DNA of 6,423 nt from a virus (Duplodnaviria; Heunggongvirae; Uroviricota; Caudoviricetes), in the IMG/VR virus record IMGVR_UViG_2541047819_000001, positions 1 through 6,423 of that record. One strand, written 5' to 3'. Positions 2,598 through 6,423 of this stretch are shown piece by piece. The notes below the pieces were generated by a model. It searched no databases and was not told where the DNA came from. It was given only the letters and a program-made list of their open reading frames with translations. Position numbers and translations under genes: made by a program. Numbering within the stretch: position 1 is the first letter of the stretch; each line of letters opens with the position of its first letter.

Positions 2598-5120
2598 ATG
2601 AGCACGAAATTTAAAACCGTTATCACTACTGCCGGAGCCGCAAAGCTGGCAGCCGCCACTGTCCCCGGCGGGAAAAAAGTAAACCTGTCTGCAATGGCCG
2701 TGGGTGACGGTAATGGCAAATTGCCGGTGCCGGATGCCGGTCAGACGAAACTGGTGCGTGAAGTCTGGCGTCACGCTCTGAATAAAGTCAGTGTGGATAA
2801 CAAGAATAAAAACTATATCGTGGCTGAACTGGTTGTTCCGCCAGAAGTGGGCGGCTTCTGGATGCGTGAGCTTGGTCTGTATGACGATGCCGGAACACTG
2901 ATTGCGGTATCCAACATGGCAGAAAGCTATAAGCCAGAACTGGCTGAAGGCTCCGGACGTGCGCAGACCTGCCGCATGGTTATTATTCTCAGCAACGTGG
3001 CGTCCGTTGAGCTGAGTATTGATGCCAGCACAGTGATGGCGACGCAGGATTACGTCGATGACAAAATCGCAGAGCATGAGCAGTCCCGCCGCCATCCTGA
3101 CGCCACGCTGACAGAAAAAGGTTTTACTCAGTTAAGCAGTGCAACAAACAGCACCAGTGAAAAGCAGGCTGCAACGCCAAAGGCAGTAAAAGCAGCCTAT
3201 GACAATGCTGAGAAACGTCTGCAGAAAGACCAGAACGGTGGCGATATTCCAGATAAGGACGCTTTTCTGGACAATGTTGGCGTTACCAGCCTGACGTTTA
3301 TGAAAAACAACGGCGAAATGCCGGTTGATGCTGATCTGAATACATTTGGTCCCGTTAAGGCTTATCTGGGGATCTGGTCTAAAGCTACTTCAACTAACGC
3401 AACACTGGAGAAAAATTTCCCGGAAGATAATGCTGTCGGTGTGCTTGAGGTATTCAATGGCGGTAATTTTGCAGGAATGCAGCGTTATACCACCAGAACA
3501 GGCAATGTTTATATGCGCAACCTTTCTGGCACCTGGAATGGCTCAGACGGTCCGTGGAGCTACTGGCGTCAGATTCAGTCAGCAACACGCCCTTTGAGTA
3601 CGACTATAGACCTGAATACGCTTGGAGCCGCCGAACATCTTGGTTTATGGCGTAACAGTAGCTCGGCTATAGCTTCATATGAACGCAATTATCCAGAGGA
3701 AGGCGGCTTTGCTCAGGGGATGCTTGAGATCCTCGAAGGCGGAAATTATGGAAGAACGCAACGTTATACCACTCGCCGTGGAAATATGTATGTCCGCTGC
3801 CTTGCGGCAAGCTGGGATGCATCAAATCCGCAGTGGGAACCGTGGTTAAGAGTCGGTCATCAGTCAGAGAGTCGTTATTACGAAGGTGATTTAAATGTTC
3901 TAACCGACCCCGGTATTTACAGTGTTACAGGAAAGGCAACAAACGGTCCGATGCTGGACACCGTTGGCGCGACACTACTTGGGATACTGGAAGTAATCAG
4001 ACGTTTTGATGGTGTGTCTGTCTGGCAGCGTTACACAACCACAGGGAAATCAGAAACTACACAGGGACGCACTTTTGAGCGCGTCTACGCCGGGAGCAAA
4101 TGGACCGAATGGCGAGAAGTATATAACTCCTTTTCGTTGCCTCTGAATCTGGGCATCGGTGGCGCAGTGGCAAAACTATCCAGTCTGGACTGGCAGACCT
4201 ACGATTTTGTGCCGGGCAGTCTGATAACCGTGCGGCTTGATAACATGACCAACATTCCCGACGGTATGGACTGGGGCGTCATTGATGGCAACCTGATAAA
4301 CATCGCAGTTGGTCCGAGTGATGATTCCGGTACGGGGCGCTCAATGCATGTATGGCGCAGCACTGTAAGTAAAGCGAACTACCGCTTTTTTATGGTGCGT
4401 ATTTCAGGAAATCCGGGAAGCCGCACGATCACGACAAGACGTGTGCCAATTATCGACGAAGCTCAGACATGGGCGGCGAAACAGACATTCAGCGCCGGTC
4501 TTTCAGGCGAACTGTCCGGCAATGCGGCTACAGCTACAAAGCTGAAAACGGCACGAAATATTAATGGTGTCAAATTTGATGGCACCGGCGATATAAATAT
4601 TAATACGCTGGTATCCCGGAATCGCGTCACAGCATTAAGCGGGAGTGCAAAGGGGACGCCTGGTATTCAGATGTATGAGGCATATAACAATGGCTACCCT
4701 TACACCTATGGCAATGTGCTTCATCTTACGGGGGTGTCCGCAGTTGGAGAAGGTGAATTACTTATCGGCTGGAGCGGCACCAGTGGAGGTTACGCGCCAG
4801 CATATATCCGTTCAAGGCGGGATACAGATGATGCTCAATGGTCTGGATGGGCGCAAATTTATACGACAGCTCATAAACCATCGCCAGGTGATATTGGCGC
4901 TTATACCAAGGCGGAATGTAATTCACGTTTTATTACAGGTATTCGCTTAGGTGGTTTGTCATCCCTTCCAACGTGGAATGGTACTGGCTGGCATGACAGG
5001 TCAGGGCATGTTCTTACTGGTGTTGTCAATAGTAATACTGATGAATTAATTGATATCGCGCAGGCAAGACCTGTTCAGTATTGTATTAATGGCACATGGT
5101 ATAACGCAGGGAGTATTTAA
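2598..5120 (+). CDS. H: Tail fibre protein gpH (840 aa), mosaic: conserved P2-H-like N-terminal attachment domain, three tandem ~92-aa repeats, conserved fibre junction motif, divergent C-terminal receptor-binding tip
   Basis: Single uninterrupted ORF in the H position. N-terminus [20 protein letters not shown]... is typical of P2-like fibre proteins. The motif [31 protein letters not shown] matches the conserved tail-fibre junction seen in P2 H, lambda Stf and Mu S. Confidence 0.92.
3333..4127 (+). repeat. Three tandem protein-level domain repeats (~92 aa each) inside H, with shared motif DLNxL...G-x-LE[IV]...QRYTT...W..W
   Basis: Repeat units start at 3333 (DLNTFGP), 3609 (DLNTLGA) and 3888 (DLNVLTD). 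A QRYTT core recurs at about 3478, 3757 and 4026. The copies are diverged at DNA level and similar mainly as protein. Confidence 0.7.
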
Positions 5121-5650
5121 TGATGATGCATTTAAAAAATATTAAGGCAGGGAATCCAAAAACTATTGAACAATATGAATTAACCAAACGATTTAATATT
5201 GTCTGGCTATGGTCAGATGATGGTAAAAACTGGTATGAGGAACAAAAGAATTTCCAGCCAGACACTTTAAAAATGGCCTACGACGAGAACGGTATTATTC
5301 GTTGCATTGAGAAAGATGTGTCAATGCTCAACCCTGATGGCTTGAGTGTTGTTGAGTTACCGAATATAACCGCCAACCGTCGCGCTGATATTTCAGGTAA
5401 CTGGATGTTCAAAGATGACACTGTAATTAAACGTGTATATACGGATGCAGAACGGCAGCAGCAAGCCGAAGTCCGAAAGTCAACCTTGCTTGCAGAAGCT
5501 GAGGCATTGATTCAGCCGCTGGAGCGTGCGGTCAGGCTGAATATGGCAACAGATGAGGAGCGCAGCCGACTGGAGGCATGGGAACGCTACAGCGTTCTGG
5601 TCAGTCGTGTGGATCCTGCAAATCCTGAATGGCCGGAACTACCACAATAA
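5120..5650 (+). CDS. G: Tail fibre assembly chaperone gpG (176 aa), Tfa family
   Basis: Length is close to P2 gpG. C-terminus [26 protein letters not shown] resembles the lambda Tfa C-terminus (...LEAWKKYRVLLNRVDTS..EWP..P, from memory). ATG overlaps the H stop (TAATG); GGGAG lies about 8 nt upstream. Confidence 0.9.
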
Positions 5651-5655
5651 ATACA

Positions 5656-5682
5656 GGCGGGCGGATTGCCCGCCTTTTCTTT
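5656..5682 (+). terminator. Rho-independent terminator downstream of G
   Basis: Stem GGCGGGC (5657-5663) pairs with GCCCGCC (5668-5674) around a 4-nt loop, followed by TTTTCTTT (5675-5682), 6 nt after the G stop codon. Confidence 0.7.
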
Positions 5683-5779
5683 ATCTGTTGTTTCATCCCC
5701 TGACCAGTCAGGACAAATAGCGTCTCACGCCCTGTACAACTGAAAATACCACTCACCCATTAACCACGGAGTTAAACGG
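5683..5779 (+). promoter_or_regulatory. Candidate late promoter region for the FI operon (PF-like), containing dyad CCTGAC-N2-GTCAGG at 5699-5712
   Basis: In P2 a late promoter (PF) precedes FI. A dyad lies about 74 bp upstream of the FI ATG and GGAG sits at 5767-5770. I could not find an exact TGT-N12-ACA match, so the assignment is positional. Confidence 0.3.
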
Positions 5780-6423
5780 ATGAGTGATTATCATCACGGT
5801 GTGCAGGTGCTGGAGATTAACGACGGCACCCGCGTCATTTCCACCGTATCCACCGCCATTGTCGGCATGGTCTGCACGGCCAGCGATGCGGATGCGGAAA
5901 CCTTCCCCCTCAATAAACCGGTGCTGATTACCAATGTGCAGAGCGCAATTGCAAAGGCCGGTAAAAAAGGCACGCTGGCGGCATCGTTGCAGGCTATCGC
6001 CGACCAGTCAAAACCGGTCACCGTTGTCGTGCGTGTGGAAGACGGCACCGGCGACGACGAGGAAACGAAACTCGCGCAGACCGTTTCCAATATCATCGGC
6101 ACCACCGACGAAAACGGTCAGTACACCGGACTGAAAGCCCTGCTGGCGGCGGAGTCAGTAACCGGTGTTAAACCGCGTATTCTCGGCGTGCCGGGACTGG
6201 ACACCAAAGAGGTGGCTGTTGCACTGGCATCAGTCTGTCAGAAGCTGCGCGCTTTCGGGTATATCAGCGCATGGGGCTGTAAGACCATTTCCGAGGTGAA
6301 AGCCTACCGCCAGAATTTCAGCCAGCGTGAGCTGATGGTCATCTGGCCGGATTTCCTCGCATGGGATACGGTCACCAGTACCACCGCCACCGCGTATGCC
6401 ACCGCCCGTGCGCTGGGTCTGCG
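5780..6423 (+). CDS. FI: Tail sheath protein gpFI, 5' portion (214 codons, continues beyond window)
   Basis: ATG at 5780 with a GGAG RBS; the frame stays open to the window end. N-terminus MSDYHHGVQVLEINDGTRVISTVSTAIVGMVCTASDADAETFPLNKPVLITNVQSAI agrees with my recollection of P2 sheath protein FI. Confidence 0.9.
   Translation, partial: MSDYHHGVQVLEINDGTRVISTVSTAIVGMVCTASDADAETFPLNKPVLITNVQSAIAKAGKKGTLAASLQAIADQSKPVTVVVRVEDGTGDDEETKLAQTVSNIIGTTDENGQYTGLKALLAAESVTGVKPRILGVPGLDTKEVAVALASVCQKLRAFGYISAWGCKTISEVKAYRQNFSQRELMVIWPDFLAWDTVTSTTATAYATARALGL

What the first reader, a model, noticed from the sequence alone, without database searches (positions are those of the whole stretch)
3333..4127. 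Tail fibre H carries a triplicated ~92-aa module absent from the canonical P2 fibre
H is 840 aa, against the 669 aa I recall for P2 H. The extra length is largely three consecutive diverged copies of one domain (DLNxLG...LEV/LEI..GG...QRYTTR.GN.Y.R....W...W) between the conserved N-terminal attachment domain and the junction motif. Tandem domain arrays in fibre shafts change fibre length and can add carbohydrate-binding sites, so this may matter for receptor reach or specificity. I cannot assign the repeat to a named family from memory.
Basis: seen in the sequence. Interest (0 to 1): 0.5.

Follow-up and report, generated by a model that had tools for sequence, protein, structure and literature searches.

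The report
Three tandem knob domains in fibre
The tail-fibre gene of this P2-like E. coli prophage does contain three consecutive copies of a ~90-residue domain, but it is the known 'pyocin knob' fibre domain, in an arrangement shared with many sequenced phages, so the finding is real but ordinary.

Summary
H (2598-5120, 840 aa) carries three in-frame tandem modules at aa 244-335, 336-428 and 429-512. Copies 1 and 2 are unmistakably related (43% identity, z=32). Copy 3 is marginal by pairwise sequence but sits in register and folds the same way. AlphaFold models of the array, and of copy 3 alone, both match the Knob domains of the R1/R2 pyocin fibres and the same set of knob-bearing phage receptor-binding proteins. 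NCBI already names near-identical fragments 'pyocin knob domain-containing protein'.

Canonical P2 H lacks the module, but this is not an insertion. Everything after aa ~204 is a different cassette. Aa 226-656 (three knobs plus about 145 aa) is 55% identical to T6 gp37 aa 105-531. The same architecture occurs in Yersinia phage L-413C gpH, in about 30 Peduovirus records and in 275 of 5426 complete E. coli genomes. Each knob is closer to its positional counterpart in T6 than to its own neighbours, so the triplication is old. In the wider family, arrays of 1-6 knobs occur and three is common.

The most likely role is as trimeric bead-like shaft and folding modules, possibly with accessory glycan binding. 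The Mu S'-like tip probably sets specificity. Low interest; already known.

The parts
2598..5120 (+). Tail fibre gene H (840 aa); identical to E. coli WP_021540557.1
   Evidence: ORF list. PHROG 381 tail fiber, E 6e-178. Exact match in NCBI. Gene order V-W-J-I-H-G-FI.
2598..3227 (+). Conserved Peduovirus N-terminal baseplate-attachment region: PF12571 aa 1-151 and PF03406 repeat aa 170-210
   Evidence: Pfam. 84% identical to P2 H aa 1-204. 99% identical to L-413C H over aa 1-204.
3327..3602 (+). Knob domain 1 (aa 244-335)
   Evidence: AF2 gives five strands. Fold matches. Family profile iE 2e-37. 65% identical to T6 gp37 knob 1.
3603..3881 (+). Knob domain 2 (aa 336-428)
   Evidence: 43% identical to knob 1, z=32. 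AF2. Profile iE 2e-29. 68% identical to T6 gp37 knob 2.
3882..4133 (+). Knob domain 3 (aa 429-512), the most diverged copy
4134..4565 (+). Remainder of the gp37-like shaft block (aa 513-656), fold unresolved; contains the [13 protein letters not shown] junction motif at nt 4518-4556
   Evidence: Part of the 55%-identity alignment to T6 gp37 aa 105-531. Monomer AF2 pLDDT below 30. No similarity to the knobs. Homolog alignments and Yp22 identity break at aa 656-668.
4803..5117 (+). Receptor-binding tip (aa 736-840), Mu S'-like
   Evidence: PDB 8ju3_A residues 385-488, E 1.4e-44. 71% identical to Mu S'.
5120..5650 (+). Tail fibre assembly chaperone gene G (176 aa), Mu U-like
   Evidence: PDB 5yvq_B, E 6e-86, full length. 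73% identical to Mu U and 60% to U'.

Best explanation
Nt 3327-4133 encode three tandem 'Knob' domains of the kind first defined in the R1/R2 pyocin fibres. Each is an ~85-93-residue module in which each chain contributes a five-stranded antiparallel beta-sheet joined by outward-facing loops. By analogy with the solved pyocin fibre, the three chains of the trimer pack their sheets around the fibre axis, so each module forms one globular bead on the shaft. The array is the proximal part of a ~430-aa shaft cassette (aa 226-656) shared with T2/T6-type gp37 and with L-413C-type Peduovirus H proteins. This cassette is recombined between the conserved P2-type baseplate-attachment domain (aa 1-204) and a Mu S'-like receptor-binding tip (aa 736-840), which is folded by a Mu U-like chaperone (G). 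Shown here: the repeat, its fold class, its homologues, its age and its frequency. Inferred: that the knobs act mainly as trimer-registering and folding modules and as rigid length-adding beads, with variable surface loops that may provide accessory low-affinity glycan contacts, while primary host specificity lies in the tip.
Against: The models are monomers (pTM 0.44), so trimeric packing is assumed rather than shown. No curated Pfam or NCBIfam model hits aa 246-510. No experiment addresses this protein or the knob block of any close homologue. Even for the pyocins, the role of the knobs is inferred from sequence diversity and bound ethylene glycol. The knobs are the most divergent part of the shared region when compared with L-413C (46-67% against 99% and 76% for the flanks). 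Knob 1 also carries a local recombination patch relative to vB_YpM_22. Both patterns would equally fit a direct role in host recognition.
Confidence: 0.78

Rival explanations
1. The knob array is itself a primary or co-receptor binding site. Its surface loops would bind LPS core or O-antigen sugars, so that knobs and tip together orient the fibre on the cell surface, as proposed for Knob2 plus the C-terminal domain of R-type pyocins.
For: Buth et al. found Knob2 to be the most diverse fibre region and to bind ethylene glycol. [quoted passage not shown] Here the knobs are the most divergent part of the otherwise conserved aa 1-656 when compared with L-413C. Of the 77 nt differences from vB_YpM_22 in that region, 40 fall within knob 1.
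Against: In T2/T6-type phages the same block sits in the proximal part of gp37 (aa 123-392 of 994), far from the gp38-capped tip. Near-identical knob blocks (86-100%) are joined to unrelated tips in vB_YpM_22 and several E. coli homologues, as expected for a shaft cassette that is neutral to specificity. The knob 1 patch has as many synonymous as non-synonymous codon changes (15 vs 14), which points to recombination rather than selection.
Confidence: 0.18
2. The three copies arose by a recent, lineage-specific triplication or insertion into a P2-type H gene.
For: P2 H lacks the module and is 171 aa shorter.
Against: Each copy is closer to its positional counterpart in T6 gp37 and L-413C than to its neighbours. 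DNA-level repeat signal is almost gone. The entire interior of H is non-homologous to P2 H.
Confidence: 0.02
3. The third 'copy', or the repeat as a whole, is a chance resemblance of short motifs.
For: R2 vs R3 gives z=2.4 only, and the R1+R2 HMM scores R3 at 3.7 bits.
Against: R1 vs R2 gives z=32. R3 folds independently into the same fold class. R3 shares 16 invariant columns in register. R3 is found by the family profile at 2e-16.
Confidence: 0.02

Closest known systems
Knob1/Knob2 domains of Pseudomonas aeruginosa R1/R2 pyocin fibres (PDB 6CL5, 6CL6, 6CU2; Buth et al. 2018, PMC6116203)
   Different: Sequence identity is only 17-21%. There are two knobs in the pyocin fibre and three here. 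The distal parts differ: an iron-containing shaft plus lectin foot in pyocins, against a gp37-like block plus Mu S'-like tip here.
Yersinia phage L-413C gpH (913 aa) and vB_YpM_22 H (911 aa), Peduovirus
   Same: Same architecture: P2-type N-terminus, three knobs at the same positions (aa 245-514), and the same following shaft block. vB_YpM_22 is 87% identical over aa 1-768. L-413C gpH is an experimentally supported RBP described as a mosaic.
   Different: The distal ~180 aa and the tip are unrelated (31-36% identity). L-413C knobs are only 46-67% identical to these.
T2/T6-type long tail fibre distal subunit gp37 (e.g. T6 BBF63668.1, 994 aa)
   Same: A 431-aa block containing the same three knobs in the same order plus the following domain, at 55% identity.
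   Different: The block is embedded in a T-even distal half-fibre that attaches through gp36 and carries a gp38 adhesin at the tip. The N- and C-terminal contexts are different.
Alteromonas phage A5/V22 tail fibres (PMC10579305)
   Same: A documented case where related fibres differ by duplication of a pyocin-like knob domain. This shows that knob copy number varies among known fibres.
   Different: The sequences are unrelated, and there are one or two knobs rather than three.
Canonical P2 tail fibre H (NP_046775.1, 669 aa)
   Same: N-terminal 204 aa (84% identity), the C-terminal INGTWYN-type end (29%), and the gene context V-W-J-I-H-G.
   Different: No knob modules are detectable by BLAST or by two profiles. 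The interior is a non-homologous region.

Membership tests
Pyocin-type Knob domain (Buth et al. 2018; NCBI name 'pyocin knob domain') | Module of ~80-90 residues built from a five- or six-stranded antiparallel beta-sheet connected by variable loops | tested here: met
   The AF2 model has strands at 23-27/46-53/56-64/69-74/89-92, then 114-118/139-145/151-157/161-167/182-186, then 204-208/227-233/240-247/254-262/271-274.
Pyocin-type Knob domain (Buth et al. 2018; NCBI name 'pyocin knob domain') | Structural similarity to Knob1/Knob2 of the R1/R2 pyocin fibres and to the other knob-bearing RBPs (phi11 gp45, phage K gp144, T4 gp34, AS12 gp42) | tested here: met
   [not shown]
Pyocin-type Knob domain (Buth et al. 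2018; NCBI name 'pyocin knob domain') | Homotrimeric packing with the beta-sheets buried at the three-fold axis | not testable with these tools
   Only monomer prediction was available. This needs AlphaFold-Multimer or an experimental structure.
Pyocin-type Knob domain (Buth et al. 2018; NCBI name 'pyocin knob domain') | Match to a curated sequence model of the domain | tested here: inconclusive
   Pfam and NCBIfam give no hit in aa 246-510. However, NCBI names 74-95%-identical fragments, and a member of this protein's 90% cluster, 'pyocin knob domain-containing protein'. The CDD model behind that name could not be run.
Pyocin-type Knob domain (Buth et al. 2018; NCBI name 'pyocin knob domain') | Located in the shaft of a phage or tailocin fibre or tailspike, often in tandem | tested here: met
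   The modules lie between the P2-type attachment domain and the receptor-binding tip of H. There are three in tandem.
Peduovirus (P2-like) tail fibre protein H | N-terminal tail-collar fibre domain (PF12571) plus PF03406 repeat, homologous to P2 H aa 1-204 | tested here: met
   PF12571 E 5e-57 and PF03406 E 2e-21. 84% identical to P2 H.
Peduovirus (P2-like) tail fibre protein H | Gene order V-W-J-I-H-G followed by FI, with a tail fibre assembly chaperone immediately downstream | tested here: met
   ORFs. RefSeq annotation of 97%-identical prophages. FI start at 5780. G matches the Mu U chaperone.
T2/T6-type gp37 shaft cassette | Collinear homology across three knobs plus the following ~145-aa domain | tested here: met
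   H aa 226-656 vs T6 gp37 aa 105-531: 55% identity, E 8e-169.

The most novel reading that the evidence does not exclude
The three-knob block could be an independently exchangeable accessory glycan-binding module. It would give P2-like and T2/T6-like fibres a second binding site on LPS, distant from the tip, that orients the fibre, as proposed for pyocin Knob2. On this reading the local mosaic patch in knob 1 (aa 271-330) reflects host-driven diversification of that site.
Probability: 0.15. Interest if true: 0.4.

Novelty: already known. Interest (0 to 1): 0.12.

Why it matters
The practical value is mainly for annotation. RefSeq names this protein only 'phage tail protein' or 'tail-collar fiber domain-containing protein'. 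Here it resolves into attachment domain, three knob domains, a gp37-like shaft block, a junction motif and a Mu S'-like tip. Clean cassette boundaries (aa ~205-225 and ~656-668) are useful for engineering chimeric fibres or retargeted tailocins. The conservation of a three-knob block between Peduovirus H and T-even gp37 is another clear example of fibre cassette exchange between unrelated phages. It does not open a new question.

Tried and rejected
- Self-BLAST of the whole H returned only the identity hit, so the segments had to be compared separately.
- Pfam and NCBIfam gave no model for the repeat.
- A PDB sequence search found only the Mu S/S' fibres, matching the PF03406 repeat and the tip but not the knobs.
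- An HMM built from R1+R2 alone barely detects R3.
- A fourth knob was sought in aa 513-656. There is no sequence similarity and the monomer AF2 model does not fold there, so this remains unresolved.
- DNA-level tandem repeats are absent.
- The readings 'recent triplication' and 'simple insertion into P2 H' were rejected.
- A literature search for an explicit description of knob domains in T2/T6 gp37 or P2-like H found only the EM-based 'knob' domains D1-D10 of T4 gp37 and the mosaic description of L-413C gpH.

Full report
**Context.** The window is a P2-like (Peduovirus) tail and baseplate operon. It carries V (172-807), W (804-1151), J (1156-2064), I (2057-2587), H (2598-5120, 840 aa) and G (5120-5650). 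A hairpin with a T-run follows G at about 5656-5683, and the tail sheath gene FI starts at 5780. The whole window is 97% identical to prophages in complete E. coli genomes, where RefSeq annotates the same gene set. The H protein is identical to E. coli WP_021540557.1, which is named 'phage tail protein' or 'phage tail-collar fiber domain-containing protein'.

**Check of the observation.**
- Nt 3333-4127 correspond exactly to H aa 246-510.
- 'DLN' begins at aa 246, 338 and 431, and 'QRYTT' at aa 295, 388 and 477, so the period is 92-93 aa.
- Copies 1 and 2 are 43% identical over 90 aa. The local alignment score is 201 against 27.9 +/- 5.3 for shuffles (z=32).
- Copy 3 is far more diverged. Against R1 it gives z=5.0 (3 of 2000 shuffles reach the score), and against R2 z=2.4 (56 of 2000). 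An HMM of R1+R2 alone gives it 3.7 bits.
- Copy 3 nevertheless shares 16 invariant columns with the others in the same order: DLN, G-LE, QRYTT, R, W..W.
- A profile built from 317 family domains scores copy 3 at 2.4e-16. This is partly circular, because R3 helped seed the profile.
- At the DNA level only the QRYTT-coding 17-mer and the DLNTxG-coding 22-mer repeat, and TRF finds nothing.

The caveat is that copy 3 needs structural evidence, which is given below.

**What the module is.**
- An AF2 model of aa 236-520 (15-sequence alignment, pLDDT 78) gives three consecutive modules, each with five beta-strands at the same relative positions.
- The best Foldseek matches against the PDB are the R1 and R2 pyocin fibres (6cl5 at 2e-6, 6cl6 at 4e-6). 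Next come the P68 fibre and the phi812 and 80alpha receptor-binding proteins.
- Buth et al. 2018 list phi11 gp45, phage K gp144, T4 gp34 and AS12 gp42 as sharing the pyocin 'Knob' domain. They describe that domain as a five- or six-stranded antiparallel sheet with outward loops, whose sheets pack at the trimer axis (PMC6116203).
- NCBI already names 74-95%-identical partial proteins, and an N-terminally truncated member of this protein's own cluster, 'pyocin knob domain-containing protein'.
- Pfam and NCBIfam have no model that hits the region.

**Relation to P2 H and to other fibres.**
- Canonical P2 H (669 aa) aligns only to aa 1-204 (84%) and aa 744-840 (29%). Neither knob profile finds anything in it.
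- The module is therefore absent from P2 H, but the difference is a replacement of the whole interior rather than an insertion.
- H aa 226-656 is 55% identical to T6 gp37 aa 105-531 (E 8e-169). This block comprises the three knobs plus a further ~145 aa.
- A tblastn of the module finds 227 phage records. Thirty-two are at 60-95% identity; the listed examples are all Peduovirus-type phages (vB_YpM_22, P24E6b, 720R8, PhiR44_2, 11W, phage 899). The other 195 are below 60%; the listed examples are almost all T-even gp37 (T6, RB3, RB6 and many others).
- vB_YpM_22 H is 87% identical over aa 1-768.
- L-413C gpH (913 aa) has the same three knobs at the same positions. Published work describes it as a mosaic and supports it experimentally as the receptor-binding protein (PMC7460101).
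- In complete E. coli genomes, 275 of 5426 hold at least 80% of nt 3333-4127.

**Age and frequency of the array.**
- Each knob is more similar to its positional counterpart in T6 and L-413C than to its neighbours in the same protein. Counterpart identities are R1 52-85%, R2 60-100% and R3 34-100%. Paralogue identities are about 36-45% for R1/R2 and mostly about 20-35% for R3 against the others, with a few lower values (6-17%) from poor pairwise alignments.
- The triplication therefore predates the spread of this cassette between Peduovirus and T-even fibres.
- A profile of the three copies, scored against 1.84 billion representative proteins, finds 418 at E<=1e-3.
- Among the 149 best, the copy-number distribution is 1:30, 2:49, 3:47, 4:14, 5:4, 6:5.
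- Variation in knob copy number between related fibres has been described before (PMC10579305).

**Mosaic structure of H.** The protein has four parts.
1. Aa 1-204 is the P2-type attachment domain.
2. Aa ~226-656 is the gp37-like shaft cassette, made of three knobs plus an unresolved domain.
3. A junction lies around [13 protein letters not shown] (aa 641-653). Identity to vB_YpM_22 falls there from about 100% to 36%, and several homologue alignments end at aa 666-668.
4. Aa 736-840 is a tip 71% identical to Mu S' (PDB 8ju3). It is followed by a chaperone 73% identical to Mu U.

**Mechanism.** The repeat, its fold class, its homologues and the cassette boundaries are shown by the results above. 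The following points are inferred from the pyocin fibre structure.
- In the trimer each module forms one globular bead, with the sheets at the axis and the loops outside.
- The beads act as trimer-registering and folding units, and as rigid elements that add length.
- The loops may provide accessory sugar contacts.
- Primary specificity most likely lies in the Mu S'-like tip, because near-identical knob blocks are joined to unrelated tips.

The main rival is that the knobs bind receptor directly. Two observations keep it alive. The knobs diverge more than their flanks when compared with L-413C. Knob 1 also carries a local patch of differences from vB_YpM_22, although that patch has as many synonymous as non-synonymous changes, which looks like recombination.

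**Verdict.** The feature is real and correctly located. It belongs to a known, named domain family, in an architecture already present in characterised phages and common in E. coli prophages. Novelty: already known. Interest is low.

Noticed in passing
window 4803-5117 (H tip) and 5120-5650 (G): The H tip is 71% identical to the Mu S' tip (G(-) orientation) and only 39% to Mu S. The adjacent chaperone G, however, is 73% identical to Mu U (the G(+) partner) and 60% to U'. In its C-terminal half the figures are 75% to U and 40% to U'. The tip and chaperone pairing therefore differs from Mu's.
   Followed up: partly
window 3408-3587 (H aa 271-330, second half of knob 1): Compared with Yersinia phage vB_YpM_22 H, 40 of the 77 nucleotide differences in aa 1-656 fall within these 60 codons (15 synonymous and 14 non-synonymous codon changes). 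Most of the rest is identical. This looks like a small recombination patch inside knob 1.
   Followed up: partly
window 4518-4600 (H aa 641-668): The conserved [13 protein letters not shown] motif marks a recombination breakpoint. Identity to vB_YpM_22 falls from about 100% to 36% just after it, alignments of several database homologues end at aa 666-668, and the T6 gp37 homology ends at aa 656.
   Followed up: partly
window 4134-4565 (H aa 513-656): This ~145-aa block is conserved with T6 gp37 (part of the 55% alignment) and 76% identical to L-413C. It could not be folded as a monomer (pLDDT below 30) and shows no similarity to the knobs. Its fold is unknown and may be an intertwined trimer.
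   Followed up: partly
[not shown]
   Followed up: partly
window 5651-5779: G is followed directly by a GC-rich hairpin with a T-run (about 5656-5683) and then, about 100 nt later, by the FI sheath gene at 5780. There is no cargo gene between G and FI, unlike fun(Z) in P2 or the hypothetical genes in L-413C and vB_YpM_22.
   Followed up: no
P0038 (1300 aa): One representative protein in the public library carries six matches to the knob profile. This is the longest array seen among the hits.
   Followed up: no
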